Part shown: piece by piece, positions 9,918 to 63,219 of the stretch | How positions within the stretch are numbered: position 1 is the stretch's first letter | Layout of the letters: the number at the start of each line of letters is the position of its first letter | NCBI GenBank assembly: GCA_951406725.2 | Contig: OX597814.1 | Span: 109,306,001-109,370,000, forward strand | DNA: 64,000 nt | Reading direction: 5' to 3' | DNA from: Octopus vulgaris | Lineage: Eukaryota | Made by a program: the position numbers and the translations under genes | Notes under the pieces: generated by a model | Database searches by the model: none | What the model was told of the DNA's origin: nothing | The model's input: only the letters and a program-made list of their open reading frames with translations

Positions 9918-10062
9918 AATCCAGAGAAGATTCACAAAGAAGATCGTCTCTTTGCAACTAGGAAGCTATGAAGCAAAGAAAAAGGGAGACGTGTGGTGCC
10001 GTGTAAAAGCACTCTGCTCACTCTGTGCAGTGGTTGGTATTAGGAAGGGCATCCAAGCAAAA

Positions 10063-11313
10063 TTGGACAAAATAATGGAAATACCTGAAAATTTCAAACA
10101 AATTTATTTTAATATGGGGTAGGACCACCTTTGACAGTAATTACAGCTTGAATTCTACGAGGTATGGACTCGTACAAAGTCTAAATTGTTTCCAAAGGAA
10201 TTTTTGTCCATTCTTCAGCTAAAACAGTCTCCAGTTCTTGTAGTGATGATGGTGGAGGATATCAACTCCTTACTTGTTTTTCTAAATTGCACCATAAATG
10301 TTCAATAATATTGAGATCTAGGGACTGTGGTGGCCAGATAAGATTTTCAGCTTCACTAGAACGTTCCTCATGCCATTCAGTAACAACTTTAGCTGTGTGA
10401 ATTGGTGCATCATCTTCCTGAAAGATTGCATTTCTCTCCAGAAACAGTTCTGCAACCATAGGATGAATTTGATCAGATAAAATGCTTAAATAGTCTTGAC
10501 TATTAATTCTGCCATGAAGGGAAACCATTGGGCTGGCAGATTTCCAAGATATAACCCCCCCATCCCCGATCATCACAGACCCTCCTCCATGTTTAACAGT
10601 TGGAAGAAGGTAGTCTGGGCCAAATGCTTCTTTTGGCTGTCTCCACACATATACTCGGCCAATGGTCAGAAATAGGGTAAAGGATGACTCGCCTGAGAAA
10701 ATAACATTCTTCCACTGCTCTAGGGACCAATTCTGTAGGTTTTTACTCCACTCTAAATGCTTAGCAACGTTTGTTTTTGAAAGTAGTGGTTTTCTGATTG
10801 CAGCCTTCCCATGAAGTCTGGCTTTGTGCAGCTCCCAGCGAACAGTTTTTGTGGAAACTGAGTTCTCGAGGTGGTCATTAAGCTCTGCGGCAATTTTGTG
10901 ATATTTTCTAACAATTCGCGTAAGAGTCCAACAGTCCCTATGTGAAAGTTTTGGTTTTCTTCTGGAGTTTTATTCCAATGAGGTTTTTTCCTCTTTCTCA
11001 AAGCCTGTCTTTACTTTCGAGACAGTACTTCTTGATGCACCAAACATTTTGGCTGTTTTCACTACGCTAAGGCCTGCTATACAAGCACCAACAATTTGAC
11101 CTCTTTGAAAGTCCGATAGATCTATCATTTTAATGAATTTTAATTACCTTTTTCTGATGATATCTGAAAAGAAACAGCAATTTTAGCAAAACATATTAAG
11201 CAACACTAATAATAAATTAAAAAACACAAAAAAATAAACAAGCTTTCGATGGTTTTATAGATATTTCAAAATTATGATGCTATGTGTTTCCATTATTTTG
11301 TCCAACCCCTCTA
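10063..11313 (-). mobile_element. Tc1-like DNA transposon, decayed
   Basis: TIR ttggacaaaataatggaaa(c/t)ac at both ends, TA at 11312-11313; transposase from ATG at 11128 (MIDLSDFQRGQIVG), with TVKHGGGSVM, FQEDDAPIH and DLNIIEHLW motifs. Confidence 0.92.
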
Positions 11314-11536
11314 TGTTAAGCATACGAAGAACAAAGACTGCAGTGATGTCTTTAGATATCCAGGACCAACATGACATCACCAGTAAAAGTATTAGTGTTA
11401 AAATGATGTGCTTTAGGTGTTCATATTGATAACATGTACATACAGTTTGTATGTGTACATGGTCATAATATATACACACAGTTTGTGATGTATATTGAAG
11501 ATATTTAAATTTATCTTGTGTTTCCCTTTATTTCAG

Positions 11537-11671
11537 AATTTGTTATGAAAGTTTTGTAATTTTGGCAGTACAAGCATACGGTGAACAGAATAAATGGAAA
11601 GAAGTTCTTCCTTTCATTGATAAAATCTATGGAAACATCAGTCAGTGTCCTCCCACAGTGATAAAACTTTG
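11537..11671 (+). CDS. PEX26: PEX26 coding exon 2
   Basis: tttcag acceptor and GTAAGT donor; translates ICYESFVILAVQAYGEQNKWKEVLPFIDKIYGNISQCPPTVIKLC, matching vertebrate PEX26 'GIQALAEMDRWQEVL...LPPKVLELC'. Not in the ORF track. Confidence 0.9.
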
Positions 11672-12399
11672 GTAAGTCCAAAGCCGATTTAGTGATTGTT
11701 TTGTTTTGGGGTTTTTGGTTCCGTTGGCTCCTATCAAACCATCCAACTGATGCAAACAGGGAAAGTGGACATTAACCTTTTCATTACTGGATCACCTCTG
11801 ATCTCCCTCTCTGTTGTGGCAGGACACCTGCTCCTGTCTCTTCATCACACTATAACCTTTCACCCCCACTCTGACACAAGTTCCCCTCCTCAAATGCTCT
11901 GTCCCTCTCATAATTCCTTGTCTTGTGAGTTACTCGGTTACCCTGCCAGTGCTGGTGCCACGTTAAAAGCATCCATCACACACAGTAATGTGGTTGGTAT
12001 CTGGAAGGACATCCAGCTGTGAAAATCTTGCCAAAACTAACCTCGCCTGGGCTTGTGCCACATAAAAAGCACTGGGTCCACTCTGCAGAGTGGTTGGTGT
12101 TTTACATGCCATTGAGCTGACACCAACATCGGCCATGACTACAGTCATCTTGGTCACTTGTCATGGCATCGTTGAGGCCATGACAGGTGACTAAGATCAT
12201 TGGCAATATAAATATATACGTAAAAAGCACCCACTACACTCACTGAGTGGTTGGCGTTAGGAAGGGCATCCAGCCATAGAAACACTGCCAGATCAGACTG
12301 GGCCTGGTGCAGCCTTCTGGCTTCCCAGACCCCAGTTGAACCGTCCAACCCTGCTAAACGATGATGATGATATATACATATATATATATACACATACAT

Positions 12400-12815
12400 A
12401 CTAGCTGAGCATCCTATCTTACCAGGTAATTTTCACAGTAGAATTCCTTGGCAGACTTGTGGAATAACACACCCATATAAGCTGGATTTTCTCCATTTCA
12501 ATGGGGGAGTTTTTCTGTCATCATACCCTTGCAAATGATGAGGGGAAACTTTTTATGAATTCCCCACTTCCAGACCAATTTTGCCCAATTTTTCTTTTTT
12601 TTTTTGTATTTCATACTTAAAAACAATGGGAGATGCTTTTCAGTGAAAACTTTTTTAAATTTTGAAAATTTGTGAATTTTTCAACCCCACTCCTTCACTT
12701 AGTACTGATTTTTGGTCAATGCTTTTCTACGATGAACAATAGGGGATGCCTTTTCAGTAAAAATTAAAAAATTTTGAAAATTTATGAATTTTTCAACCCT
12801 GCTCCATTTACAGAC
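12400..12815 (-). mobile_element. Non-autonomous Helitron-like element
   Basis: Minus-strand hairpin plus CTAG|T end near 12401; internal ~65 bp direct repeat at 12621 and 12735. Confidence 0.55.
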
Positions 12816-13074
12816 AGAATAAATACCAGGCTTCAAAAAAATATAGAACACTTAGGATTGATTTATTTGACTAAAATACCCTAAGGCAGTACCCCAGCAT
12901 GGCCATAATCTAATTAGTGAAGCAAGTAATAAATTAAAAATTTCTAAAATCTCATTTCTTGATGGTCCTAAATGTCGGTCTCGTCTTTGCAATAATTAAT
13001 AAATTTTTAATGTATTTCATGTTTGACATTTAAATGAAATCTATTTTTATAACATTTTGTTGTTTCGCTTTTAG

Positions 13075-13367
13075 CATTGGCCTTTTGTCATGGGTTAAAG
13101 AATACGATGTGGCTCAAAAACAAGCATGTCTGTGGCTGGAGAATCCACAGAACTTGGAGAAGGAACACACAACGGTAGGGAAGCTGGTTGTTGAAGAAGT
13201 CTTATTACCACAAAAGAAATACTTGGAAATTTCGCATTTTGTTGAAAAGATGCTTAAACTGAATCCTGAAGAAAGAAAACAGATACAAAATTTTGTCTCG
13301 GAAGCAAAAAGATACGAAGATAGTAAAATGGAGAAATTTAATAATATCAAAACACCTACAAAGAAAG
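13075..13367 (+). CDS. PEX26: PEX26 coding exon 3
   Basis: ttttag acceptor and GTAAG donor; IGLLSWVKEY...WLENPQN...VEEVLLP matches PEX26 'ILLYSKMQE...WLQDPAN...VQRVLLP'; frame continuous with exon 2. Confidence 0.9.
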
Positions 13368-13480
13368 GTAAGCTCTTTAAAATTTAGTAACATCATCATC
13401 ATCATTTAAGCATTCACTTTTCCATGCTTGCATGGATCGGACAGAATTTATTGAGGCAGATTTTTGTGCAATCAGATGCT

Positions 13481-13986
13481 CAGTTCTATATTTAAGAGAC
13501 AAGGAATTATGTACATTATTTACATTTGACGGATATTTGTCTTCATCTTGTTTGTTGTTAACACAACGTTTCGGCTGATATACCCTCCAGCCTTCATCAG
13601 GTGTCTTGGGGAAATTTCGAACCAGGGTTCTCATTCCTAAGGTATTTTTTGATATTGTTATTATTATTATTCAGGTCACTGTATAGAACTCGGAATCTTG
13701 GGGTTAGTAGCCCATGCTCTTAACCTCTATGCTCACGGGCATATGACATAGTGGTTAAGAGTGTGGGCTACTAACCCCAAGATTCCGAGTTCGATTACAG
13801 GCAGTGATCTGAATAATAATAATCATAATAATAATAATAATAATATCATCGAAAAATACCTTAGGAATGAGAACCCAGGTTCGAAATTTTCCCAAAACAC
13901 CTGATGAAGACTGGAGGGTATATCAGCCAAAATGTTGTGTTAACAACAAACAAGATGAGGACAAATATCCATCAAATGTAAATAAT
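13481..13986 (-). mobile_element. Inverted-dimer tRNA-head/hammerhead retroelement, copy 1
   Basis: Two ~250 bp arms in inverted orientation about a centre near 13735; flanking duplication aatcagatg at 13470-13478 and 13984-13992. Confidence 0.85.
13560..13605 (-). ncRNA. Minimal type I hammerhead ribozyme motif (Penelope-like)
   Basis: Minus-strand RNA GACAC-CUGAUGA-A-GGCUG-GAGGGUAUAU-CAGCC-GAAA-CG-UU-GUGUU: intact core, helix I GACAC/GUGUU, helix II GGCUG/CAGCC, palindromic AACGUU helix III. Confidence 0.75.
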
Positions 13987-14678
13987 CAGATGTCCTTCCT
14001 ATTGCCAACCCTCATCTGTTTGCAAGCAAAGTGATAATTTCACAGCTATCGATGGATGTCTTTCAGTTTCCACCTACGAAACCCACTCAGGGATGTAGTG
14101 GAAAACACCCAAATTGCCATGCAGTGGGACTGAACTCAAAGCCATATGGTTAGAAGGCAAACTTCTTAACCACACTGCCACATATGTATGCTGGCACCCA
14201 TGCTGATGGTACATAAAAAGCACCATTTGAGTGTGGCCAATGCCAGTGCCACCTGACTGGCATCTATGCTGGTGGCATGTAAAAGGCACTCACCACACTC
14301 TCAGACTAGTGGGCATTAGGAAGGGCATCCAGCTGTAGAAACCTTGCCAAATCCGATTGGGGCCTGGTGCAGCCTCCCAGTTTGCCAGTTCTCATTCAAA
14401 CCGTCCAACCCATGCCAGCATGGAAAGTGGACGTTAAACGATGAAACACACACACACACAGAGACAAGGCGTATCAGATTTTTTGAGGTCATTTGTATGA
14501 ATCTAGAAAAAGATCTCATTAAAGTAAAGCAGCATTTGAAAACGAATGGTTACAAAAAATCTGAGAATGCTTTTATCACACCTATTCAAGGACTCCATCA
14601 ATGGCTGCTTCAGTATGAGGTCGAAAGCATTGACACACCTGATTCAAATGATCTTTATCCATTTTGGACATAATGCTG

Positions 14679-14750
14679 GTTATGGCAGACTTGTGCTGAT
14701 TATGGCAGACTTGTGCTGATTATGGCAGACTTGTGCTGGTTATGGCAGAT
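14679..14750. repeat. 20 bp tandem repeat, ~3.5 copies
   Basis: ttatggcagacttgtgctga repeated. Confidence 0.9.
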
Positions 14751-15640
14751 TGTATGGTGTTATGGAGCAGGAGTTAACTGACCTCTCTCTCTCTCTCTCA
14801 ACTATGCCCCATACATAATAGTCCAGTGGATTGAGGTCTGGTGAGCTAGGAGGCCCTGTGTCTGGAAGAACATAATTATGGAGATTGGCTTGCCAGCACA
14901 CTTGGGTTGTCCTAGCCTTATCAGACAGTGAAGAATCCTGCTGGGAGACGTAGGGTCTTCGATTGTGAACCCTGTCTATCCAGGGTCTCACAACTTTCTC
15001 CAACACCTCTGTAGACAGCAGCATTGACTCTTAAGCCCAGTAAAAAAAAAAAGTGAAAAGGCACAACATCTCCTGCATTGTTGACAACTCCCAGAACCAT
15101 AGCACCTTCACAGTTGCTAGGGGTTTAGTATGCATGACCTTTGAAACCTTATCTTGGTCTTTGCATGACCATCTCTTGTTCTTTCTGTTTGCTTTTTAAT
15201 CCTGATTGAAATTTCTCTCATTGGAGAAAAACTAAAGCATTCCAACCTGTTGGTGTTTTGACTTTAACCTGCACTTTGCACAGATTTGATGATTCTCTCT
15301 TACCTCATCTGACTTGAACTGACCCCTCCACATCACATGCAACTGTACCGGATGTCTTCATACACAACTCTTCTGAGGGTCCATTCTGAAAACTTGAGGT
15401 CTTTTGCAATAGTTGTGATTGACTTTCTGGAGTTTTATCAATTATTTCTTGGACATTTTGTACAAAGTCAAGTGTTCTAATGTTATTAGGACCCTATGCT
15501 TGCATTTTGCATTTAGCTGCTCATTTTAGATCCCTGTTGGCAGCTTCCAACTCCTTTTGAACTTTGCCAATGAAAGATCAGACAACTTTCAGTAAGTGAC
15601 CAATCTCTGTATTATCATGCTGTGCTCTCAAGGCAGCAAT
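14750..15640 (-). mobile_element. Tc1/mariner superfamily (maT/DD37D-like) transposase relic
   Basis: LEKVVRPWI...QQDS...PPSSPDLNPLDYYVWG motif; many stops upstream. Confidence 0.8.
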
Positions 15641-15683
15641 TACAGCCCTTTCAATGGCTGAGTCATCCTGATATCTGATATTA

Positions 15684-16078
15684 TCTCTCTATATATAAAG
15701 CTGAAGTTGTCTGTGTATGGCAGGTTTGGTAGCCTCCAACTAACACTATCTCCTCCGAGACCCTGTGGCGGAAGTTGACCAAAATTGAGAGTATGATAGA
15801 AGAAGGCTTGCTCTTCCTCCCATAGAAGAAAAAAATTCAAATCAGACCATGTTAACACCAAAAATTATTTACATCAAAAAGGTGCTTTTTTTTCTATGAA
15901 AATACCTATTTTTTACGATTTTTTGACTGCTGTGTCGCCATTTTTCAGTGTATTTCAACCAGAAAAAATGTTCACTTAAAGAGAATAACAAGCTACATAA
16001 TGCAAAATATTTACTTTTCAAAAATTTCAATTCTAAAGGGTCAAAACAAACCTGAGCAGTGCCGGGCGATACTGCTAG
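15684..16078 (+). mobile_element. Non-autonomous Helitron
   Basis: A|TC start, subterminal GC hairpin cctgagcagtgccggg, CTAG|T end; no TSD. Confidence 0.75.
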
Positions 16079-16169
16079 TTTATCTGAAAAGTAAGGTGAA
16101 AAAAAAAGTAAACCAGAAGAATGTTAGAGCTCTTGAAAGAGATGTCCTCAAAAGACTGATGCACCCTGT

Positions 16170-16274
16170 GTATAGAATGCACCAGTTCTCATCCGATCAC
16201 TAAAGTTAAACAACGTCAAGCTGAGATAAGTACTTAGATGGGTGACTGCTTGGGAAACCTAGGTGCTGTAAGCA
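16170..16274 (+). pseudogene. 5'-truncated 5S rRNA relic
   Basis: gaatgcaccagttctcatccgatcactaaagttaaacaacgtc...agtacttagatgggtgactgcttgggaa...gtgctgtaagc aligns with metazoan 5S from about nt 20 to the end, with CpG-type decay. Confidence 0.85.
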
Positions 16275-16858
16275 TCTCACTTATCCTAAGCGGTGCCCCA
16301 GCATGGCCTGTCTAATGACTGAAACAAGAACACACACACACACACACACACATTTATTTATTTATGTATGTCGCCTTACTGGCACCTGTGCCGGTGGCAT
16401 GTGTAAAAGATTCGAGCGAGGTCGTTGCCAGTACCTCCTGACTGGCCCCAGTGCTGTGGCATGTAGAAGGGCACCATTCGAGCGTGATCATTACCAGCGT
16501 TGCCTTACTGGCACCTGTGCCGGTGGCATGTGTAAAAAGATTTGAGCAAGGTCATTGCCAGTACTGCCTGACTGGCCCCCGTGCCGGTGGCACGTAAAAG
16601 CACCCACTACACTCTTGGAGTGGTTGGCGTTAGGAAGGGCATCCAGCTGTAGAAACTCTGCCAGATCAAGATTGAAGCCTGGTGCAGCCATCTAGTTTGC
16701 CAGTCCTAAGTCAAACCGTCCAACCCATGCTAGCATGGAAAGCAGACGTTAAACGATGAACGAATGTTTATATATTTATTTGTGTGTTAATGTGTTTCTG
16801 TTTACTTTTTTCAATATACAACCTGTTAATGGGCAGAATATTTCAATCCATCTTTCAG

Positions 16859-17002
16859 AAGAAGAGCAGAATGTGATGCTGTCACTGATAGAAAGAATGA
16901 AGGCCTTCTTCCAGTCCTTGTCACCATACTTCCGACATGGTACAGGAAAGGTCCTATTTCTTGGCCTCTCGTTGTATTTGGTCTTCCTCCATCTCAGGGT
17001 CG
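16859..17002 (+). CDS. PEX26: PEX26 coding exon 4 (transmembrane anchor)
   Basis: ctttcag acceptor and GTAAGT donor, phase 1/1; encodes KVLFLGLSLYLVFLHLRV, the hydrophobic tail-anchor segment. Confidence 0.85.
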
Positions 17003-17184
17003 GTAAGTTCTTACGTAATTCAAACTCTTCCACTCTTGAAATCTCACTTTCCTATTTAATGATGGCTTTGGATTTACCTGAGAAGCTTGCTTGAACATGT
17101 CACGTATTTGCATGCCGGAGCCAAACATTAGCACTTCTTGCTAGACGCCATCCTAAACATCTTCCAGACAGTAATCCAAATGCC

Positions 17185-17402
17185 TCTCACCCAACACCAG
17201 TTTAGACATCTTTTATCAGACACCAGTCTAAACACCTCCTGCCAAACATCAAGCTAAAAACCTTCACCAGATGCCGCTCTAAACACTTCTCACCTACCTA
17301 AACACTTCAGACACTAGTTTAAACACCTGCCAAACATCAAGCTAAACACCTTCACCAGATGCCGCTCTAAACACTTCCCACCAATCACCAACCTAAACAC
17401 CT
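17185..17402. repeat. Degenerate minisatellite (ctaaacac-containing units, higher-order duplication)
   Basis: gccaaacatcaagctaaa.accttcaccagatgccgctctaaacactt occurs twice (about 17241 and 17328). Confidence 0.75.
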
Positions 17403-17532
17403 GCTAGTTCTGCCCTGCCTCCATAAACAATGACCATTGAAGACTGGTAACCTCGTCTCTTTCAACAGCACAAACTCTCAGTGACTACATAATCCACATT
17501 TCTCACATTTCCTCATTTTTAACACTTGGTCG

Positions 17533-17771
17533 TTTATTTGTTTCAGTCATTTGACTGCGGTCATGCTGGAGCACCGCCTTTAGTCGAACAAATCGGCCCC
17601 CAGGACTTATTCTTTGTAAGCCCAGTACTTATTCTATTGGGTGTTTTTTGCTGAACTGCTAAGTTATGAGGGACGTAAACATGCCAACATCAGTTGTCAA
17701 GCGATGGCAGGAGGACAAGCACACACACACACGCATGTATGTGTATATATATATATATAAATCTCTGTATA

Positions 17772-17849
<78 letters not shown>

Positions 17850-18008
17850 TAGATACGACGGGCTTCTTCCAGTTTCTGTCTACTAAATCCACTCATAGTG
17901 CTTTGGTTGGCCCAAGGCTATAGTAGAAGACACTTGCCCTTGGTGCCACATAGTGGGACTGAACCTGGAACCATCTGGTTGGAAAGCAAGTTTCTTACCA
18001 CACAGCCA
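17533..18008 (-). mobile_element. SINE family A with long (TA)n
   Basis: Reverse complement of the family A consensus. Confidence 0.85.
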
Positions 18009-18942
18009 CTTTCCTCATTGGACATTTGTTTTTCTTTTCCTCTGCTTAAATCTACTTCATATTTAGCTTCCCATCTTGCTCTTAAACCTCTCTCTTAATT
18101 AATTATTATCATTTCAAATTATGGTGCAAAAAATGTTGGCTGCTATTCTCTTGCTTTTTACTCTGTTGTGATGTACTCTGTTGTGTTGTACTCTGTTGCT
18201 TTGTACTCTAGATGAAGCAGACCACAGACTGATATACAGTTTCATTAGAACGCAATACCATATTTGATGGCATAAAAAGGGTGCACTGGCTTATCAGGTG
18301 CTCCCTAATTTCAGAGGCATATATTCAGGGTGAAACGTTTTTGATGCATTGAAGTAGTGCTGCAGCTCTGCACCTGAAACCATTGAAAGAAGAAAAGAAT
18401 TCAAGTTTTCATTGTGGAGGTGCATGGCTTTTTGGTTAAGGTGTTGCACTTATGGTCATCGGATTGTGGTTTCGATTCCTGGCCTGGGCAGTGTGTTGTG
18501 TTCTTGAGCAAAACACTTCCTTTTACATTGCTTCAGCCCACTCAGCTGGCAAAAGTGAGTAATCTTGTGACAGACCATGCCCCAGGGAGGGAATATATAC
18601 ACTACAGAATCCAAGAAACCAACCTTATGAATCTACGGCTTGGGAAGGAGCCTTTTTCTTTCCCTTTCGAAAGCATGCAATATAGACCTAATTCCACATA
18701 TAGAATCCAGGGTGATGTTCTTTTGAGGGAGGGAAACTATATCTTATATGCCACCAAATATGGTAATTATAGCTTTTCTTTTTGCGGTGCATTTAACTAA
18801 AAATCTTACACTTCTTTATAAATTGACTAATTTTTATTAAAAAATGTTTTGATATTGATTGTGTTGGTTTATTTTTGCTGAAAATAATATTTGTGAAAAT
18901 AACATTTTATACTTAAGAACACTGTATCTATTTTTATTTATA

Positions 18943-19042
18943 ATGCCCACAGGCATATGGCGTAGTGGTTAAGAGTGCGGGCTACTAACCCCAAGATTCC
19001 GATTTCGATTCCAGGCAGTGACCTGAATAATAATAATAATAA
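18943..19042 (+). mobile_element. Solo tRNA-like head of the same element
   Basis: A-box TGGCGTAGTGG and B-box-like TTCGATTCC followed by (AAT)n; closely matches the central head of the dimer family. Confidence 0.75.
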
Positions 19043-20022
19043 TTTTCAATTTTTGTTATTTTGACAAATATGAAATACTGACCAAATAAGTTTTAAACTT
19101 GAGCTGGTCAGCTGGACTTTAAGGTTCCATAAGGTCCCATGATGTTCTCATTTTTAGTAAATTCTATAAAAATTATTAGTAATGGTAGCAGAAAACTTTT
19201 GATTATTTATATAATGTAATATGAACTGACTTACCGACCTGTACCACTTCTCTTATATTCACCTCCCTGTAACAAGAGGGGACACCCTGATGCCTCTTTC
19301 CTTGGCAACTGGGGTAACCACGGATCTCTGCTACTCAAGACACCTGTTCTTGTCTCTCTTTCTTACATCATTCTTTTTAAACCTGACATGGTGCCACCTC
19401 CCTCAATACTGCATCCAACTGTCAAGGGGCCTTGTCTTGTAAGTTACTTGGTGATCCCACTGTTGGTGCCACACCCAGTCCACTCTGTAAAATTGTTGGT
19501 GTTAGGAAGGGCCTCCAGTCATAGAAACCATGCAAAGGCAGGCATTGGCACTTGGTGTAGTCGTCTGGCTTGCCAGCTCCTGTTTAACCTTCCAATCCTT
19601 ACCAGCATGGAAAATGGATATTGAATGATGATGATGATGATGATGTTTTATAAGTTGGTTAAGGAGGGTGCATGGGGTGACCCCATGACCATTGTAGGTT
19701 ATCTCTGTGGCATCTCACAGCATCTGCTTATTCTGATTCCCTACAGTCTTTGTTCAAATTGCAGTGAAGTCAACTTTACCTGTCTTCCTTTCTGGGGTTG
19801 GTTAATAAAATTACTGATGCAGGGCAGAGGAATAAGAGAGCTGTTAGAGGGAGCAGCGGCTAGATGCCTTGTTGTATCTGATAGCTGACAGATTTCTCAA
19901 GACATACAGCACAGTTTAGCTGACTTTCAATGATGTCTGTTTTAAGTATGATACGCAGATTGCTAGTTTGAACTAATACTGCTTTTGTCACAAATAACAA
20001 AAATTTTCTCATTATCTTTCAG

Positions 20023-20111: not shown

Positions 20112-21479
20112 GATGTCAACTCGAGAAATCTCTCTTTCTCTTAATTATCTTCCATAACTTAGCTGCTGTGATCATGATTCATAATTAACAAAGTTGGTAT
20201 CAGTGAGATATAATTCTTTCTCTTACCTATTTTGTAATAATCTCTACACTTGTATATTGTAAACAATAATGTCGGAACTGTATTTTAAAAAAAATATGGT
20301 AAAAATCTTCAATGCTAAAATACTAATGTGAAATTTAAATGCCAGAAGCTTTTCTTTAAGCCTTTAATAAGAACATCTTGCATTTCTTTTTCTGGGATGT
20401 TTTGTCTGCAAAATAATTTTATTGTCTTATTTTCAAAGCATTTAAGAAAAAAATTTTTTACAAGAATAATTAGCATATTTTGTTTTCATTACAAAACAAA
20501 ATATTTTGTTTTGTAAATAATTCACCAAATTGGTACCGGGTTTTTGTTTGTTGGTTTTTGTGTGTGTGGGTGTATAAAAGTTTACTGAAGAATGTAGAAC
20601 TGGTAGAATAAAGAGTACATTCCAAATTGTATGTGTGCTGGGATGTGTGTGTGTGTGTGTGTGTTAGTGAATGGGTGTAACAGAAATTTTGCTGGAAGAC
20701 ATTTGTAAAAGAAAGAAATTATTTCAATTTTATTGACCTTTGTGTCTGATCAATTCTTTTTAAAAGATTTTATTACCCAATAAAATATGTTTAAGATTTT
20801 TGATAAGCCAGAAAATAGAAATATTTCGTAGAAATAGTTGTGAATTTCGCACTAAATTTCATTCATTGACAAATTACTTTCTTTATACCTGACACCATGT
20901 TAAACAGACTGTTTAACATATGTTAAGTAAATGTTAAACAGATATTAAAAAGAAATATTTAGGAATTTATAATTTTTTTTCTCCTAATATTTCATTAAAT
21001 TTAGTTCAGCTCTTTGTCTAGAAAATATAAAGTTTGTTATATTAAAAAATTCTATGGATATTTTAGAACAAGAAATAGTTTTTAAGTAAGCTTTACTTAC
21101 GAATATTTAACTAATAAAATATGGAAAAATAAAATGCATACAAAGGCAAATTTTCAAAGCTGTTCTTATTTTTATTTTTAAATATATTTAAAGATAAAAC
21201 TCTGATTTTTATTGGAGAAGAATGAGTTGCAATTTACGTATGAAAATGTCTATAAAAGGAGTTCCATAAATCAGGAGTTTATTTGCCCAGAATGAAGAAA
21301 TTTTATGAAATTCAAAACCAAGATCTAATTAAGACAGTTCTGAAGCTTTGGTTTTCTTTTTCTTCTTCATAGTTTTGACATTTCCTCAGATATTTCTTAT
21401 AGAGTCCAGATTATATTAAATTGATAATGTTTTAAATTTTCTTTCAATGTTAAAAATGAAAATTGATATGATTAACTTC

Positions 21480-21987
21480 TGTACATTATTTATATTTGAT
21501 GGATATTTGTCCTCATCTTGTTTGTTTTTAACACAACATTTTGGCTGATATACCCTCCAGCCTTCATCAGGTGTCTTGGAGAAATTTCAAACCTGGGTTC
21601 TAATTCCTAAGGTATTTTTCAATGTTATTATTATTATTATTTAGGTCGCTGCTTGGAATCAAACTCGGAATCTTGGGGTTAGTAGCCCACGCTCTTAACC
21701 ACTATGCCATATGCCTTTGGGCTCACAGGCATATGGTATAGAGGTTAAGAGCATGGGCTACTCACCCCAAGATTCTGAGTTCGATTCTAGGCAGTGATCT
21801 TAATAATAATAACATTGAAAAATACCTTAGGAATGAGAACCCAGGTTTGAAATTTCCCCAAGACACCAGATGAAGGCTTGAGGGTATATCAGCTGAAACT
21901 TTGTGTTAACAACAAACAAGATGAGGACAAAATATCTGTCAAATGTAAATAATGTAAATAATTCCTCATCTCTTAAATATAGAACTG
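21480..21987 (+). mobile_element. Inverted-dimer tRNA-head/hammerhead retroelement, copy 2
   Basis: Both heads retained; duplication gattaact(t/c)ctg at 21470-21481 and 21988-21999. Confidence 0.85.
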
Positions 21988-23081
21988 GATTAACTCCTGG
22001 TTGAATTATAAATAAATTTTAAAATTTATAAATAATTGCAAAGATTTTTAACATAAAATATTATAAATATATTTATAATATAATATTTTATAATATAAAT
22101 GAAATATATTTATATTATTATATATTATGTAAAATATTAAAAGCAATAATTTGAGATAGTAAAAGAGCAACAGATGGCTTTTTGATCTTGGTTCTGCTAC
22201 CAATAGATACTGCTTTAATCCTTTTGTTACCATATTTCCATTAAAATTTCATGTAAATTTTAATGAAGCATAAATTATGAAAATTTGATGGAAGATTTTA
22301 ATTTAGAATGGTACAACCCTTTGTTACTGTAATTTCTGTTAAGATTTACTACCTTTGTGTCAATTAATTTTCAAAACAACAAAAAATTCATCAAAATAAC
22401 TTTTTCATTATTAAGCTGGGACATAAATTAAGAAAGAAATTTTGATGGACGATTTCAATGTAGATCACTTTAACCTGTTAGTTACCATATTTTTATTGAA
22501 ATACACAGCCTTTATTTCAATCAATTTTAAAATAATGAAGAATTTATTATGAAAAAAAAAAAAAAAACTTTATTATTGAGCTGGTATTTGGACCATGTAT
22601 TAACAAGGAATTTAAAATTTTGATGGAAGGTTTTCAATCAGATCACTTTACAGTAGGAAGTTTCTATCACAAAACCAACGAACAGCCTGAGGTGGGTTTC
22701 TATCAAAAGGTTTAAGTCTCTTCAGTGGATCTGCTGCTGTTTTCTGTTTCAAATTGGTGTTTATTAATGCCTAGCATCTTTTATCTAAGGAATAATGATG
22801 GTGATGCGAGACATTTATGGGAGAAGTCCATAGTCTCTTGATACCTGCCACACAAACACACTTTTGTCAATGAAAGCAACAAGCTGTGCTGATACATATT
22901 TTTATCATTGAAGCTGAAGTAGATTGGAAGGGATGAGGCTAGGCATCCAGAGAGGGAGAACTGGATCGTTCGATCACTCTTTTTTACAGTAATTCACAGC
23001 TGGAGGTCACGATATAAGATTTTGTTGCCAAAGTTTATATGCAATAAATTTGCTATATTCCTACTAAAGAAAATATTTTAG

Positions 23082-39962: not shown

Positions 39963-41945
39963 CTGAAAGGGACACAATAACTCAGATTGAATGGATAAGA
40001 CGAATCGAAATTAAAAGATTAATGGAGGACAAGATTTATGGTGGTGGTGATAATGGTAATTCATTCCAGAGGGAGAAAGCTGACAACTTGTAGAATCTTT
40101 GAAGATGTAAATCTGTTGGGTTTCATTGCATTGACACATGTAGCATCTGTCATTGCTCTGCTGCTCACACATCATTGTTTAACATCCATTTTCCATGCTA
40201 GCATGGGTTGGACGGTTCGACCAGGGTCTGGGAAGCCAGGAGGCTGCACCAGGCTCCAGTCTGATCTGGCAGTGTTTCTACAGCTGGATGCCCTTCCTAA
40301 TGCCAACCACTCCGAGAGTGTAGTGGGTGCTCTTTACATGCCACCAGCACAGGTGCCAGGGGAGGCTGGCAAATGGACATGATCGGTTGGTGCTTTTTAT
40401 GTGCCATCGGCATGGAAGCCAGTCAAGGCGGCGCTGGCATTGACCACGTATGGGTGCTGTATTTTATGTGCCACTGGCACAGGTATCAGAACTACAATTC
40501 CATTTGATTTTTTGATGTTGTACTCAAACATACAAATGAAGTCCTGACTTCAAACATGAGACGACTTGAAGACAGAGATTCATCAGCTTATTCTGTGTTG
40601 TTAACTCAAAAATCGTTTGTTTATTTGTGGAGGGACAAAGGAAAAGTGGTTGGGGGTGTCTGGATTTGGTGGGGGATTTGTGGTATGCGTAGATAGAAGA
40701 GAAGGGAGGGGGTGAGGTCAGAAGTGAATATGACAGATTTGGCTGCAAGAATAGTGTTTTGTGAAGAATCGTGGGAAAAGAACCAACAGAGAAGGAGATT
40801 TAAGGAAGTTGGAGGAGATGATTGAACAAGGAAGGGAAATGTATGACTTTGTTTAGACACATAACTGCCTGATTGGCCCCCTCCGTGCCAGTGGCACATA
40901 AAAAGCACCATCTGAATGTGGCTGATGCCAGGCCTGCCTGACTGGCTCCCGTGCTGGTGGCATGTAAAAAGCATTATCTGAACGTGATCGATGCTAAGCC
41001 TGCATGACTGGCTCCTGGGCCAGTGGCATGTAAAAAGCACCCACTACACTCTCGAAGTGGTTGGTGTTGGGAAGGGCACCCAGCTCTAGAAACACTGCCA
41101 GATCAGATTGGAGCCTGGTGCAGCCACTGGCACTCCAGACCTCAGTCAAACCATCCAACCCATGACAGCATGGAAAACAGATGTTAAACGATGATGATGA
41201 TGATGATGACAGTTGGCAGCTTCAAAACTCATCTGTCTTCCATGCTGGCATGGGTTGGACGGTTTGACAGGATTTTATAGGTCCAAGGACTGCATCCCAC
41301 TGCTGTGTCTGCTTTCTCACATGGTTCCTATTGCTCGAGGTTGTTCCTTATGTCAACCACCTTACAGTACTTTCCTTCATCGTGTTAGCACTAGCAAAGT
41401 AGCCATGCAGCCTGTAGGACCAAGATCCTCTTCAACTGGGTGGGGTTACAGCAGAGAGGGGAGTGGGAATTGTGTTAGGGAATCAGGAGTTAAAGTATGG
41501 AGAAGGGGATAGAAGGGTACAGGTTGAGGAGTTACATGGTTAGTCATCTTAGAGAAGAGATGGTTGGAGTGATCATGCGGGACTGACCAGGGTAGAGCTG
41601 GAAAGAGATATAAATAGTAATGATGAAGTGTCAGGGTACAGCCTCAAAGTGCAAGGCGAATAGGAGTAGGGAATGTGGGTGAGTAGGGTTTGCAAAGCAT
41701 TTGAAAGAGAGGGGGGGGGGGGGGTTAAAATGGGGAACAAGTGATCAGGGTGAATATAATGAAGAACAAGCGTTGGGGGATGTATCTTTAAATCTTTAGC
41801 TTTTAACTCATATTATTGAAGCAGAAACATGATACAACTAATCGACTAGTGCAACATGTTGGAGGCTAAAGTGTTGCAGGTTTTTAAAATATATCAAGAT
41901 TATAAAATTCATTCAAAAACAAATCATTAAAACATTTGTTAAAAA

Positions 41946-42318
41946 CAGTTCTATATTTAAGAGATGAGGAATTATTTACATTATTTACATTTGACAGATA
42001 TTTGTCCTCATCTTGTTTCTTGTTAACACAACATTTCAGCTGATACACCCTCCAGCCTCCATCAGGTGTCATGGGGAAATTTCAAACCTGGGTTCTCATT
42101 TGTAAGGTGGTCGTCGTCAGCGTCGGCGTCATCATCATCATCATTATTATTATTCAGATCACTGCCTGGAATCGAACTCGGAATCTAGAGGTTAGTAGCG
42201 CATGCTCTTAACCACTACACCATATGCCCAAGATACTTAATGAAGGCTGGAGAGTATATCAGCTGAAATGTTGTGTTAACAACAAACAAGATGAGGACAA
42301 ATATCCGTCAAATGTAAA
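41946..42318 (-). mobile_element. Inverted-dimer element, copy 3 (one head missing)
   Basis: Duplication atttgttaaaaaca at 41934-41947 and 42318-42331; second arm resumes just before the hammerhead. Confidence 0.85.
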
Positions 42319-42369
42319 TTTGTTAAAAACATTTAAAACACTGAATCAGAAACAGAATAAATTTCTTAC

Positions 42370-46300: not shown

Positions 46301-47304
46301 CTACAGAAGAATATACAAAGATATTCACATTAGCAGGGAGAAATCAATGAGGGGTGAACTTTACAAATATACAGAAATATATATATTAATGGTATTATGT
46401 TAAAACATAAGCATGTATATAAAGGTATATCAGCACCACGACTAGTAACACAATCTACTCCAATAAATTTCTTATGACCCATGCAGCCATGGAAAAGAGG
46501 ATATTAGATGGTGGTGCCACCTGTGTGATACCATGTAAAAGTGCGTGTGCATCATCAGGTAAAACACTCATGCGGTGCCATGTAAAAGCACTCAGGACAC
46601 TCTGTATAGTGGTTGGCGTTAGGAAGGGTATCCAGCCATAGACACCATGCCATAACAGACAACCGGAGTCTGGTGCAGCCCTCCAGCTTGTCAGCTCCAG
46701 TCAAACCGTCCAACCCATCCTAGCATGGACTACGTTAAATGATGATGATGAGGAGGATTTTAGTTATCTAAACAAGTAGTGTTATGTACCTTATCCATCC
46801 TCATCAGCATCACCAATTAATATCCATGCTCCATGCTGGCATGGGTTGGAGGGTTTAACAGAATCTTACAAATCCAAGAACTGCATTGAACTCCAATTGT
46901 CTGTTTTGGTAGGGTTTCTATACACTGGGCACCCTTTCCTAACACCAACAACCTCACAGAATGGACTGGGTGTTTTTCTTGTGGCAAAATGGTTCCACAT
47001 CAACTTCAAGGTTCAGGGTTAACAATAGAAGGTATTACTTCATAATTAGTTAAATTAGAAGTTTAATAATTAGATTCATTAAACATATTATTAACCCAAT
47101 GTACTCTGATACTCTCAACAGCTTGATATTGTATGGAGACTCTTGTAACTTTTCTTTAATTACTTTATAATTTCCTATTTAATCTCTGCAGCAATAGTAC
47201 AACTACTGACCCTTAATCTCTTCAGCTACCATCACTGCAGACTCTTAACCTTTGCAGCTAGCACCATTGTTAGCCCTAAGTCATGATACCTAACACTATT
47301 GTTG

Positions 47305-47552
47305 GTACATTATTTACATTTGACGGATATTTTCCTCATCTTGTTTGTTGTTAACACAAGATTTTGGCTGATATACCCTCCAGCCTTTATCAGGTGTCTT
47401 GGGGAAATTTCAAACCTGGGTTCTCAATCCTAAGGTATTTTTCGATGTTGTTGTTGTTGTTATTGTTATTATTCAGGTCACTGCCTGGAATTAAACTCAG
47501 AATCTTGGGGTTAGTAGCCAGCGCTCTTAACTACTACGCCATATGCCCATGG

Positions 47553-47591
<39 letters not shown>

Positions 47592-47758
47592 CAACAACAT
47601 CGAAAAATACCTTAGGAATGAGAACCCAGGTTCAAGACACCTGGTGAAGGCTGGAGGGTATATCAGCCAAAACGTGTTAACAACAAACAAGATGAGGACA
47701 AATATCCGTTAAATGTAAATAATGTACATAATTCCTCATCTCTTAAATATAGAACTGT
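47305..47758 (+). mobile_element. Inverted-dimer element, copy 4 (one head missing)
   Basis: Perfect duplication actattgttggt at 47295-47306 and 47759-47770. Confidence 0.85.
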
Positions 47759-47812
47759 ACTATTGTTGGTTCCTGTATCTTATAGAATTAAAAATAAAAA
47801 GAGATGACAAAC

Positions 47813-54767: not shown

Positions 54768-55916
54768 CTGAAACACAAAGAAAAAGGGATTAACTAATTT
54801 CAATTAACTGATATTAATAAATTTTATGAGAAAATGACGGATCCTCAACATGATTGCTTGCTTTGTTAGTAATAGCAGCCAAATCTCTCTCAAATCACAA
54901 CCTACGGTCGTAAACAAAGAAAGAAAACATCATATTAGACCGATGGTTCTCAACTATTTTTTTTCTCTGTTTTACTCAGATTGGTCCTGGAAGATATTCG
55001 ATATTTAAAAAAATCTAATTAAACTTATAGAATTAAATATTTTTAGGAATGTATAAAAATATTGTTAAAATATTTGGTGATTTAAAGCATAGGCAATATC
55101 TTACACAAATTTTAACAAAAACATCTTATAACAGATCTCCAAAAGTCATATGAACCCCAGGTGAGAACCACAACATTAGATAATCTAAGACGTCCCTTAG
55201 AACATACAATGGCCACAGATAATTTATTCAGCTATAGTGTATCTAGAACTACACTATTCAATGTGTCCGTTACTTTTTAAAGATATAAAGGTGATGGTGG
55301 CACATGAAAAGCACCCACTACACTCTCAGAGTGGTTGGCGTTAGGAAGGGCATCCAGGTGCAGAAACCTTGTCAGATCAGATTGCCAGTCCTCAGTCAAC
55401 CCGTCCAACTTATGCCAGCATGGAAGGTGGATGTTAAATGATGGTGATGATGATGGAAGGTGTTATTTGAGGGAGATTTGGATACTGTTTTTAACAAGGT
55501 GAGTGACCACATAAAGACTCCCTTTAGATGTTTCTCTGAGACAATGGCTGTGATATTAAGGAGCTGGACTGCAAACAACATGAGCAAGGTTCTTTCCTCT
55601 ATTTATGCAGGTTTATTGAACAAATAAGAAAAATGCTATAATTAAGTTGAGAGCCAAAAGGATATGTAAGAGTGAAAAGCAACCAATCTGACAAAATAAA
55701 ATTCTGAGTTAAGAAAAAAGAAGCAGGTCAGAAATATGAGCGGTTTTGACAGATACAATACCATTCTTAGCTCCTTCCATAAGCAATGTAGTGGAGTGAG
55801 TTGGGGAGAGAGGAAGGGTGAGAGGAGAGAATGTGAGTGATGAGGAGGCATGCATTAGAAATGATGAATGATGGAGTGGAAATGACTGATCCTGGAAATA
55901 GCAGTATAAATGGTTT

Positions 55917-56340
55917 GTACATTATTTTCATTTGATGGATATTTGTCCTCATCTTGTTTGTTGTTAATATGTTTCAGCCTTTATCAGGTGTCTTGGGGAA
56001 ATTTTGAACCTGAGTTCTCATTCCTAAGGTATTTTTTGATGTTATTATTATTATTCAGGTCACTGTCTGGAATTGAACTCGGAATCTTGGGGTCAAGAGC
56101 ACGGGCTACTAACCCCAAGATTCTCAGTTCGATCCCAGACAGTGACGACAACGATGACGATGACAACATCGAAAAATACCTTAGGAATGAGAACCCAGGT
56201 TCAAAATTTCCCCAAGACATCTAATGAAGGCTGGAGGGTATATCAGCCGAAACATTCTGTTAACAACAAACAAGATGAGGACAGATATCCATCAAATGTA
56301 AATAATGTAGATAATTCCTCATCTCTTAAATACACAACTG
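55917..56340 (+). mobile_element. Inverted-dimer element, copy 5 (centre partly missing)
   Basis: Duplication taaatggtt(t/g)gta at 55907-55919 and 56341-56353. Confidence 0.85.
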
Positions 56341-56863
56341 TAAATGGTTGGTAATATAGAGACCAGAATGAGACGACTGGGCACAGCTGTTTGAATGCTG
56401 ATGATTTGGCATGGCTGACTGGGCATTTGGCCTGTTCTGGTAACAGCACTGTTTGGCATCAGAGGCAAATGTGCACACACACATACACAGGTGCAGAAAT
56501 ATACACATACTGATAGAGAGGGAGAGAGAAAGTTTATTAATCGAGTATGAGTGACATAAACACTCTTCCTCTCCTCACACACATATAAGCAGAGAGAGGG
56601 AGAGCAAGAGAGAGGTAAGGAGGAAGGGAGAGAACAAGAGAAACATACAAATGAGTCAGTGCCGAAATGTTCATGGGTGTTGTTAGGTAATTCTTCACAC
56701 CCAAGAAATACATTTTCATTCACAAACACAACAGCAGCAGCCAATACCACAACCACAACCAGCAATACCAGTGCCATTGCTCAGTATTACCAATATAGGT
56801 GACTTTATGAAATGGAAATGACAATGTTTTTAGGGAGCTATAAAGCTAAATAAATCCACTTAC

Positions 56864-61788: not shown

Positions 61789-61800
61789 TGATGATGAAAA

Positions 61801-63219
61801 ATGACAGAAACATCTAACGTTAATCTTGACCAGCAGAATGTCATAAAAGAACTAGACCCAGCGGAGAGCTACAAGTACCTAGGGGTAATTGAAGGGAATG
61901 GAATAAAGCATTCAGAGATGAAGGAAAAGATCAGGAGAGAATGTTATCGAAGAGTGAGAGCAATACTCAAGACAGAGCTGAATGCAAGAAACAGGATCGA
62001 AGCGATCAATGCATTAGCCATACCAGTCGTGACTTACAGTTTCAATATCGTTAACTGGTCAATTACTGAAATATGTCAGCTCGACAGAAAAATAAGAAAA
62101 CTGTTGACAATGCATAGAATGCACCACCCTAAGGCAGATACAGAACGACTTTATCTGCCAAGAAAAGAGGGAGGCCGTGGTCTTTTGCAACTGGCAATAA
62201 CAATGAAGATTGCTACAATTGGCCTAGACACCTACCTGAAAAAGTCTGAGGATAGGATGTTAAAACTTGTCTCAAAACATGAAAACAAGAAAGCATCATA
62301 CTCAGTAACAAAACAGGCAAAGGAATATCTAAGTGAATTCCGAATACAACAAATTTCGGAATTAGAGATAGACATACAAGAAACAAGCACAGAAAAAGCT
62401 AGGCGCATGAAAACCCGTGCCAAAACTGCGGCCTTAGATATTCTGAATAATAAATGGCAAGAAAAACCTCTCTATGGCAAATACCCAAAGAGAGCGAATA
62501 ATGTAGATATTGACAAAGCCCTGACCCATCAATGGCTAATGGCCTCTGGCTTAAAATCTGAAACAGAAGGGTTTATCATAGCAGTTCAAGATCAATGCCT
62601 ACCAACAAGAAACTACCAGGCCAACATATTAAAGAACGGCAGTAGCCCAACATGTCATGTATGCCAACAACAAAATGAAACCATTGATCATGTAGTCTCC
62701 AAATGCAGTCTTCTAGTGCCTACAGAGTACCTCAACAGGCATGATAGAGCTGCACAATATATTCACTGGGTAATTTGCAAAAACCTGAATTTGCCCCATG
62801 AAAAAAACTGGTGGGAACACAATCCACCTCCAGTGCTTGAAAATGACCACATCTCACTCCTCTGGAACTTCACCATTCAAACTGACAGAAAGATAGATGC
62901 AAATAGGCCAGACATCATATTGAAAGACTTCAGACAAAGAACATGCCTCCTCATTGATATGACTGTACCAATCGATATAAACGTATTTGTCAAGACCTAT
63001 CAAAAACTGAGCAAATATAAAGATCTTGAAATAGAAATCAGCAAAATGTGGAACCTGAAGACTAAAACAATACCTGTTGTCATAGGTGCCCTGGGAATGA
63101 TAGCGAAAGGGGCTGATTGCTACCTAACTCAGATACCAGGAAACCCCAAAATGGCAGAAATTCAAAAGATAGTGCTCATGGGAACTGCTCATATCCTACG
63201 CAAAATACTCTCTATGTAA
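61801..63219 (+). CDS. 5'-truncated ORF of a Dong/R4-clade non-LTR retrotransposon (end of RT, CCHC zinc knuckle, restriction-like endonuclease)
   Basis: Uninterrupted 472 aa: YKYLG, LYLPRKEGGRGL, CHVC..ETIDHVVSKC, RHD, RPD..IDM, KLSKY. 3' UTR to about 63416, then (TAA)n. Confidence 0.92.
   Translation: MTETSNVNLDQQNVIKELDPAESYKYLGVIEGNGIKHSEMKEKIRRECYRRVRAILKTELNARNRIEAINALAIPVVTYSFNIVNWSITEICQLDRKIRKLLTMHRMHHPKADTERLYLPRKEGGRGLLQLAITMKIATIGLDTYLKKSEDRMLKLVSKHENKKASYSVTKQAKEYLSEFRIQQISELEIDIQETSTEKARRMKTRAKTAALDILNNKWQEKPLYGKYPKRANNVDIDKALTHQWLMASGLKSETEGFIIAVQDQCLPTRNYQANILKNGSSPTCHVCQQQNETIDHVVSKCSLLVPTEYLNRHDRAAQYIHWVICKNLNLPHEKNWWEHNPPPVLENDHISLLWNFTIQTDRKIDANRPDIILKDFRQRTCLLIDMTVPIDINVFVKTYQKLSKYKDLEIEISKMWNLKTKTIPVVIGALGMIAKGADCYLTQIPGNPKMAEIQKIVLMGTAHILRKILSM

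What the first reader, a model, noticed from the sequence alone, without database searches (positions are those of the whole stretch)
13470..13992. Family of palindromic retroelements: two divergent tRNA-like heads, each arm carrying a hammerhead ribozyme
Seen: five copies at 13481-13986, 21480-21987, 41946-42318, 47305-47758 and 55917-56340. Each has one arm [tRNA-like A/B-box head, (AAT)n, body, CUGAUGA...GAAA motif, tail ending tatagaactg] joined head to head to an inverted copy. The inverted copy always stops ~30-40 nt short, near aatgtaaataatgtac. Every copy has its own 9-14 bp direct duplication outside both arms, so the whole dimer inserted as one unit. Established: minimal type I hammerheads and inverted partial terminal repeats are hallmarks of Penelope-like elements (PLEs); tRNA heads are hallmarks of SINEs. 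Inference: a non-coding SINE/retrozyme hybrid, transcribed outward by Pol III from the centre, self-processed by the ribozyme and mobilised in trans by a PLE RT/GIY-YIG enzyme. I cannot tell whether a repeat library already holds the consensus.
Basis: partly seen in the sequence, partly recalled or inferred. Interest (0 to 1): 0.85.

Follow-up and report, generated by a model that had tools for sequence, protein, structure and literature searches.

The report
Penelope retroelement end with tRNA-like promoter

Summary
The five palindromes and their 9-14 bp target duplications are real, but only 2 of 5 have two full heads, and only 1 of 10 arms keeps an intact hammerhead core. The arm is not a separate SINE/retrozyme hybrid. 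It is the whole terminal repeat (pLTR) of a Penelope/Poseidon-type element in this genome. The tRNA-like head follows the stop codon by about 30 nt in 20 of 22 copies that reach the stop. The hammerhead and tail encode the first ~51 codons of the protein, and the tail runs into the ORF at 70 sites. The inverted copy, optional ~30-nt tail, hammerhead and variable TSD are textbook Penelope features. New: A/B boxes sit where other Penelope elements carry TATA-type promoters. 46 of 141 arms start at the tRNA leader, estimated copy number jumps ~8-fold within 40 nt there, and none of 30 copies holding the ORF start extends upstream of it. A distant relative (L317) has its own A/B-box cassette at the same place. 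Best reading: Pol III-driven short RNAs from the pLTR, inserted by the element's own enzyme (0.65). Pol III use is untested. I found no report in 10 searches; Repbase and Dfam were not checkable.

The parts
13470..13478 (.). Copy 1, left target-site duplication (9 bp)
13481..13735 (-). Copy 1, left arm: pLTR with tail (head 13732-13671, AAT linker, body 13653-13481)
13482..13634 (-). First 51 codons of the PLE ORF, open in this copy (P0241); matches the N-terminus of full-length PLE protein P0123 (12/17 identical, E 1e-5 pairwise)
   Evidence: continuity into the ORF in L210, L220 and 70 genome junctions
13561..13604 (-). Minimal type I hammerhead: CUGAUGA, extra A, 5-bp stem II, GAAA, palindromic ACGU, GUU cut site, stem I; the only intact core among the ten arms; lies inside the coding frame
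   Evidence: motif as in PMC4209133
13481..13510 (-). Optional ~30-nt tail between the two 3' end points
13737..13983 (+). Copy 1, right arm: pLTR without tail (tRNA-like head with A and B boxes 13739-13812, AAT run, body from 13848)
13984..13992 (.). Copy 1, right target-site duplication
21470..21999 (.). Copy 2: short arm (-) 21482-21714, tailed arm (+) 21729-21987, both heads present, 12-bp TSD
41934..42331 (.). Copy 3: tailed arm with head (-) 41946-42227, headless 5'-truncated short arm (+) 42227-42319, 14-bp TSD
47295..47770 (.). Copy 4: short arm with head (-) 47306-47546, headless tailed arm (+) to 47758, 12-bp TSD
55907..56353 (.). Copy 5: both heads 5'-truncated; short arm (-) 55918-56114 with a deletion in the hammerhead; tailed arm (+) 56091-56340; 13-bp TSD
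18945..19043 (+).

Best explanation
[quoted passage not shown] Shown: the unit runs head - (AAT)n - ATG - hammerhead and tail (codons 1-51) - RT - GIY-YIG-type end - stop - 30 nt - next head. 5' ends pile up at a leader 6 nt before the tRNA-like part, in short copies and in copies that hold the ORF start. Inferred: transcription starts at that leader, by Pol III. From a 5' pLTR the RNA can run through the ORF, which lacks TTTT. From a 3' or solo pLTR it gives the short RNA, running into flanking DNA. Because PLE reverse transcription starts inside the RNA at two sites about 30 nt apart (shown for another Poseidon element, PMC11167929), the flank is not copied and the two arm lengths result. 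The inverted arm is made during insertion from the same template: by fold-back of the cDNA at the self-complementary leader, or by priming from both nicked strands. Staggered nicks give the ~12-bp TSD around the whole unit. The hammerhead is carried along and is probably not needed to define the template. The family is old (about 5% diverged) and probably inactive.
For: Partner: in 30 RT-thumb loci, 22 reach the stop codon and 20 of these continue into the head; 27 of 30 carry some pLTR part; 17 have an inverted body upstream (junction). L188 holds a 569-aa open RT-EN frame with an inverted 5' pLTR. The tail continues into the ORF at 70 exact sites, control 0, and the arm's frame matches P0123's N-terminus. 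5' pile-up: exact 22-mer counts are EN 546, stop 890, head start 3,735, ATG 7,993, tail 6,367; after rough match-rate correction about 1,200, 1,750, 14,200, 21,800 and 13,600. That is ~8-fold over 40 nt, against 1.4-fold over the previous 360 nt. 46 of 141 arms start at head positions <=8 and 8 extend upstream. Of 30 head-ascertained loci, 25 end within 8 nt of the probe and 5 continue into the UTR, 3 of them near-identical duplicates. None of 30 tail-to-ORF copies has the previous ORF upstream on the same strand, and the two with a full head begin at the leader. The head aligns to genomic tRNA-Arg/Thr at 48-49 of 74 positions (score 18 vs shuffled maximum 7); 11 of 17 copies score >=7.9 bits with a tRNA HMM at 30-95 nt after the stop. 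No run of four T among 2,640 columns by commonest letter (about 4 expected from base content, my arithmetic); the genome's Neptune ORF has 9. Relative L317 (40% aa identity) has A and B boxes, an AAT-rich stretch and a hammerhead at the same place; shuffles give 0.0001 for that interval and 0.0015 for the whole unit. End asymmetry: 54 long/short, 3 short/short, 1 long/long. Paired arms agree at 3 variant sites: 45/49, 31/35 and 20/22 against 38.5, 22.7 and 11.4 expected.
Against: No direct evidence of the polymerase or the start site. A second pile-up (26 of 141 arms) lies at the AAT/body border, which is not a start site, so sequence features alone can create pile-ups. The T-run signal is weak: synonymous-codon shuffles of four natural ORF pieces give P 0.12-0.60, G runs are depleted too, L317's unit holds 2 TTTT runs, and several relatives also have few. 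Seven other PLE families with a readable stop-to-hammerhead interval lack the boxes, and the tree does not join L317 to this family (quick tree). The strict box pattern finds only 2 of 17 decayed family copies, so absence in relatives is a soft result. A fourth variant (3-nt deletion) is not shared between arms (21/34 vs 18.8). How an uncapped Pol III RNA would be translated is unexplained. Pfam GIY-YIG does not hit the family's C-terminus.
Confidence: 0.65

Rival explanations
1. A tRNA-derived SINE once landed in the 3' UTR of this PLE and is a passenger. The element is transcribed by Pol II (a start near the head, or host read-through), and the short copies are ordinary 5'-truncated PLE insertions that pile up because RT stalls or folds back at the leader hairpin.
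For: Head plus (AAT)n looks like a complete small SINE, and head-only copies exist (window 18945-19043, L153). Described Penelope promoters are Pol II type (PMC2377424 abstract; PMC3846280 passages), and palindromes at pLTR 5' ends are known (PMC3846280). A non-start pile-up exists at the AAT border.
Against: A stall would be expected at the 3' edge of the tRNA-like structure, not 6 nt beyond its 5' end, where Pol III usually starts (own knowledge). 0 of 30 copies holding the ORF start extend past the leader. A and B boxes fit the consensus while the acceptor stem is poor. An unrelated A/B cassette sits at the same place in L317.
Confidence: 0.25
2. One reading: a separate non-coding SINE/retrozyme dimer with two fixed heads, transcribed outward, cut by its ribozymes and moved in trans.
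For: 76 of 115 insertions are head-to-head; TSDs enclose both arms; short copies far outnumber coding copies.
Against: The arm is identical in layout to the PLE's own pLTR and is coding. Only 16 of 76 dimers have two heads and the junctions vary. Coding copies carry the same inverted arm. 1 of 141 arms begins at the cut site. The two hammerheads lie on opposite strands, so they cannot form the tandem dimer that minimal hammerheads need (PMC4209133).
Confidence: 0.05
3. A MITE-like DNA transposon with long terminal inverted repeats.
For: Palindromic shape with flanking duplications.
Against: Ends are unequal in 54 of 58 classed cases, TSD length varies (8-20 bp among the 39 good scores), and single arms, partial tandems and RT-coding copies share the sequence.
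Confidence: 0.01

Closest known systems
EN+ Penelope-like elements, Penelope/Poseidon type (Poseidon_Ac of Anolis, PMC11167929; Adineta Penelope families, PMC3846280; PMC8557442 Fig. 2)
   Same: RT plus C-terminal nuclease ORF; pLTR holding the first codons; hammerhead at the ORF start; partial tandems; inverted 5'-truncated copy; optional 30-40 nt tail; TSD of about 8-14 bp around the whole insert.
   Different: The pLTR begins with a tRNA-like A/B-box cassette instead of a TATA/Inr or LINE-type Pol II promoter. pLTR-only copies starting at that cassette outnumber stop-codon-bearing copies about 8:1.
Schistosoma Sm-alpha / Sj-alpha SINE-like repeats (as reviewed in PMC6765202)
   Same: A Pol III-type promoter followed by a type I hammerhead in a short non-autonomous repeat.
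   Different: Those are described as tandem repeats released by the ribozyme, with no coding parent named in the passages I read. Here the unit is the end of a coding PLE, inserts as inverted pairs or singles, and shows no ends at the cut site.
Animal non-LTR retrozymes as PLE pLTR derivatives (bioRxiv 10.64898/2026.07.22.740005; PMC7761336)
   Same: Short, hammerhead-bearing, derived from a pLTR.
   Different: Those are defined as head-to-tail arrays with circular RNA; no tRNA head or inverted form is described in the parts I read.
tRNA-derived SINEs; TRIMp3 elements Helenus, Ajax, Cassandra (PMC10886601)
   Same: A small-RNA-derived Pol III promoter inside a terminal repeat or head.
   Different: Those are non-autonomous, and that paper argues the autonomous partner must use Pol II and should not share the repeat. 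Here the autonomous element itself carries the cassette.

Membership tests
EN+ Penelope-like element | ORF with PLE-type reverse transcriptase | tested here: met
   L188 569 aa: RVT_1 E 2.7e-6, just under the cut-off; 2,923 homologues of 7,999 scored, with RT and PLE-associated domains; weak TERT and group II RT hits
EN+ Penelope-like element | C-terminal GIY-YIG endonuclease | tested here: inconclusive
   No Pfam GIY-YIG hit for L188 or L194; 1 of 13 relatives at E 0.23; no BLASTP match to the Neptune domain. A VYSIPCSCG..Y.G.T..L..R..EH stretch is visible (its reading as GIY-YIG is recalled), and P0189, P0193 and P0216 carry precomputed PF01541
EN+ Penelope-like element | pLTR overlapping the ORF start, in partial tandems | tested here: met
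EN+ Penelope-like element | Inverted 5'-truncated copy and optional 30-40 nt tail | tested here: met
   54 of 58 classed dimers are long/short; short ends lie 25-37 nt before the long end
EN+ Penelope-like element | Minimal type I hammerhead in the pLTR | tested here: met
   Motif, stems I and II and palindromic ACGU; cleavage not tested; fold z-score only -0.95
Penelope/Poseidon clade | C-terminal EN without the Neptune/Nematis linker zinc finger; phylogenetic placement | tested here: inconclusive
   No linker Cys motif in L188, whereas L061 has one; the quick tree separates it from the Neptune-like rows at 100; no named Poseidon reference was available
tRNA-derived SINE | tRNA-like head with A and B boxes | tested here: met
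tRNA-derived SINE | Transcription by RNA polymerase III | not testable with these tools
   Only indirect: 5' pile-up at the leader, no TTTT
tRNA-derived SINE | Separate non-coding element sharing only its 3' end with a LINE | tested here: not met
   The whole arm is the PLE's pLTR and is partly coding
Non-LTR retrozyme | Head-to-tail arrays with two or more same-strand hammerheads; unit RNA bounded by the cut site | tested here: not met
   76 inverted, 37 single, 2 mixed of 115; a few partial tandems; 1 of 141 5' ends at the cut
Non-LTR retrozyme | Circular RNA | not tested
   No small or circular RNA library was laid
Sm-alpha-type repeat | Sequence relationship to Sm-alpha | not testable with these tools
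MITE / DNA transposon | Equal terminal inverted repeats and fixed TSD length | tested here: not met

The most novel reading that the evidence does not exclude
An autonomous, protein-coding retrotransposon is transcribed from a captured tRNA promoter by RNA polymerase III over its whole 2.6-kb terminator-free unit. The same promoter turns each terminal repeat into a SINE mobilised by its own parent. This has arisen at least twice among Penelope-like elements (this family and L317) and would explain how Pol III-plus-hammerhead repeats such as Sm-alpha originate.
Probability: 0.3. Interest if true: 0.85.

Novelty: new variant of a known kind. Interest (0 to 1): 0.62.

Why it matters
If Pol III drives this pLTR, it gives a route to SINE birth in which head and mobilising end never belonged to two elements, and a PLE-moved SINE with a known parent. 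It may also mean a coding retroelement runs on Pol III, which PMC10886601 argues should not happen for autonomous LTR elements. Independently of the promoter, 10,000-20,000 short copies are a natural record of PLE insertion: one long and one short end in 54 of 58 dimers, both arms from one template, the leader on either arm, and no ends at the ribozyme cut. These extend the in vitro results for Poseidon_Ac and constrain how the inverted repeat forms, which is still open. Repeat libraries would likely split this family into a 'SINE' and a 'Penelope'.

Tried and rejected
Young 781-aa Neptune-like PLE (L061-L066) as partner: rejected; no shared end, and its hammerhead is a U3-A8 variant. GIY-YIG family search: none of 30 loci matched the arm beyond AAT runs and one 17-nt edge match. 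Rfam and ARAGORN at default settings miss both head and ribozyme; relaxed ARAGORN gives only a poor cloverleaf. The isotype is unsettled: Arg and Thr tie among the 25 distinct tRNA genes compared, which do not cover all isotypes. A loose CTGATGA..GAAA pattern is not significant in the window (4 hits vs 1.6). RNA: no RNA holder listed. Laying two unstranded RNA-seq runs of 'organism B' (possibly another species) and two contig sets on L182 gave 9,542 of 12.9 million and 7,195 of 12.0 million records laid and no place where many molecules begin or end; such libraries cannot show a short Pol III RNA, so this is no evidence either way. Relatives with DNA: P0123 alone found none; viral contigs none; phages none. 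My first box scans had faulty patterns (positive control 2 of 11, 0 of 17); one search is the corrected one, still only 2 of 17. The L317 shuffle values come from the pattern, which L317 matches under both versions. Identity with octopus SINE OR2 is unlikely, since PMC4758252 lists it as a CORE SINE; OK and OR1 could not be compared (one search found no paper). The careful tree did not finish; the quick tree was used. No earlier scan findings were returned.

Full report
Observation. Each has one arm that ends in TATAGAACTG and one that stops about 30 nt earlier, and each has its own 9-14 bp duplication outside both arms. Three details are wrong. Only copies 1 and 2 have two near-complete heads; copies 3 and 4 have one, and copy 5 has two truncated ones. 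Only 1 of 10 arms keeps an intact hammerhead core. The arm is partly coding. A sixth, head-only copy lies at 18945-19043.

Host and abundance. G000 has 2.8 Gb in 227 contigs. I take it for an octopus from recalled SINE resemblance and size; this is untested. A 39-mer of the ribozyme has 1,512 exact matches, control 0. Sixty evenly chosen 10-kb stretches held 5 body-bearing loci (6 with a second reference), which suggests roughly 2-3 x 10^4 loci with wide error. Arms differ about 5% from the commonest letter per column.

Architecture across the genome. I classed 115 distinct insertions from the window and five locus sets: 76 head-to-head, 37 single-armed, 2 mixed. Four of the sets were picked by probes, so these shares are not unbiased. 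Among the 76, 16 have both heads, 47 one and 13 none. Where both outer ends could be classed, 54 are long/short, 3 short/short and 1 long/long; 18 had an end that could not be classed. 39 of the 54 have a TSD score >=8, against 1.7% in mismatched pairs; most TSDs are 9-14 bp. This matches the described Penelope layout: inverted 5'-truncated pLTR, optional 30-40 nt tail, 8-10 bp TSD, pLTR holding the first codons (PMC3846280 and PMC8557442, passages read).

The parent element. The genome's young Neptune-like PLE shares nothing with the arm. A different PLE fragment in a random stretch (L117) led to a second family. Of its 30 best RT loci, 22 reach the stop codon and 20 of those continue, 30 nt later, into the tRNA-like head, AAT run, hammerhead and tail. 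One of the two exceptions (L185) keeps the leader and then has a deletion. L188 has a 569-aa open RT-to-C-terminus frame and an inverted pLTR at its 5' side. At the other end the tail runs straight into the ORF in L210 and L220 and at 70 exact sites genome-wide. The window's own copy 1 left arm reads as 51 open codons from an ATG 20 nt into the body, and these match the N-terminus of an 847-aa relative, P0123. So head, ribozyme and tail are one pLTR, and the ribozyme lies in coding sequence, as in Poseidon_Ac (PMC11167929, parts 1-2 of 4 read). The nuclease domain is recognisable by eye and through relatives but not by Pfam. The clade name rests on the missing linker zinc finger and a quick tree without named references.

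The head. It aligns to genomic tRNA-Arg and tRNA-Thr genes at 48-49 of 74 positions, well above shuffles. A and B boxes fit the consensus (consensus recalled), and the acceptor stem is poor. Genome-wide 22-mer counts rise from 890 at the stop codon to 3,735 at the head start 38 nt away; the nuclease probe 360 nt further up gives 546, the ATG probe 7,993 and the tail probe 6,367. Corrected roughly for match rate these are 1,750, 14,200, 1,200, 21,800 and 13,600. In sets not picked by the head, 46 of 141 arms start at the head's first 8 positions, 8 reach upstream, 26 start at the AAT/body border and 1 at the ribozyme cut. In the head-picked set, 25 of 30 end within 8 nt of the probe. Of 30 copies with the tail-to-ORF junction, none carries the previous ORF upstream on the same strand, and the two with a full head start at the leader. 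The simplest reading is that both long and short RNAs start at this leader. Pol III is the natural polymerase for A/B boxes, but this is inference.

Terminators. By commonest letter, 2,640 columns of the unit hold 12 runs of three T and none of four; the Neptune ORF of equal T content has 9. This is compatible with Pol III read-through but weak. Codon shuffles of four natural pieces give P 0.12-0.60, G runs are also scarce, and 12 related ORF pieces range from 0 to 8.

A second case. Among relatives with DNA, L317 has A and B boxes, an AAT-rich stretch and a hammerhead between stop and ORF start. Shuffles hit in 0.01% for that interval and 0.15% for the unit. Its stop-to-hammerhead stretch has no TTTT, whereas seven other families have 1-10 and no boxes. 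Its full unit has two TTTT, and it also has a TATA-like word. The tree does not join it to this family, so convergence and shared ancestry both stay open. The box pattern is insensitive on decayed copies (2 of 17 family copies).

How the palindrome forms. Paired arms agree at three variant sites (45/49, 31/35, 20/22; expected 38.5, 22.7, 11.4) but not at a 3-nt deletion (21/34 vs 18.8). They therefore come from one template or one from the other; later conversion between arms cannot be excluded. The leader is self-complementary, and many junctions are palindromes through it. It lies on the long arm in 8, the short arm in 10, both in 3 and neither in 33 of 54 dimers, so either arm can be primary. 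Fold-back of the cDNA and priming from both nicked strands both fit. Poseidon_Ac nicks and extends both strands, starts at two internal sites that bound the tail, and does not need ribozyme cleavage in vitro (PMC11167929), which agrees with the end pattern here.

Expression. Nothing decisive; see Tried and rejected.

Literature. Ten searches returned no paper describing a tRNA-derived box in a PLE pLTR or this family; the library lacks most subscription journals. Seen: PMC4209133 parts 1-2 of 4; bioRxiv 10.64898/2026.07.22.740005 parts 1-3 of 5 (its supplements are closed); PMC13282606 part 1 of 3 and a term search of its one supplement (no hammerhead or Poseidon); passages of PMC10886601, PMC4758252, PMC6765202, PMC8967140 and PMC7761336; the abstract of PMC2377424. 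Ohshima and Okada 1994 and the Sm-alpha papers were not seen. Repbase, Dfam and published repeat libraries could not be checked and may hold the consensus under a Penelope or SINE label.

Verdict. Identity as a PLE pLTR is shown (about 0.95). A start site at the tRNA leader is strongly suggested. Pol III as the source of the short copies is likely (0.65). Pol III transcription of the whole coding unit is possible (0.3). The palindrome, tail, ribozyme and TSD are known Penelope traits; the tRNA-type promoter inside an autonomous pLTR is the new part. New variant of a known kind, interest 0.62.

Noticed in passing
L317 1531-1596 and 4322-4387 (boxes), 1684 and 4475 (hammerheads): A PLE from a metagenome contig, 40% identical in protein, has its own tRNA-like A/B cassette, AAT-rich stretch and hammerhead between stop codon and ORF start. 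Its two repeats are 100% identical, so the tandem may be an assembly product.
   Followed up: partly
L061-L066 (e.g. G000:C16:20834800-20841500): A very young Neptune-like PLE: 781-aa RT/GIY-YIG frame open in many copies 98-99% alike, a second upstream frame of 330-480 aa, and a U3-A8 variant hammerhead.
   Followed up: partly
L097 2312-4508: A 359-bp tandem repeat with a type I hammerhead in each unit, five units on one strand and two inverted: a retrozyme-like array.
   Followed up: no
L149 7657-8147; L133; L108 9954; L137 141-964: Two further short families with head-to-head hammerhead pairs and no tRNA head seen by eye, so the inverted form is general for PLE-type ends in this genome.
   Followed up: no
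window 61798-63219 (+): A 473-aa C-terminal part of a LINE (weak zf-RVT hit) between (AAT)n runs, likely Dong/R4 type (recalled). Similar LINE pieces interrupt the AAT linker of some family copies (L178, L096, L084).
   Followed up: partly
window 16155-16274 (+): A 5S rRNA-like sequence (Rfam 56.4 bits, above the gathering score) with several unpaired positions: pseudogene or SINE3 head.
   Followed up: no
window 10262-10969 (-): A 235-aa frame resembling a Tc1/mariner transposase (recalled motifs).
   Followed up: no
whole window: Five body-bearing insertions in 64 kb, against 5-6 in 600 kb of evenly chosen genome stretches: about eight- to nine-fold local excess, unexplained.
   Followed up: no
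L346, L347, L356, L349, L341, L348: Copies in which a piece of ORF start is joined directly to a head start, as if RT jumped from the 5' end of a short RNA to another RNA; three copies (L346, L347, L360) break at the same ORF position.
   Followed up: partly
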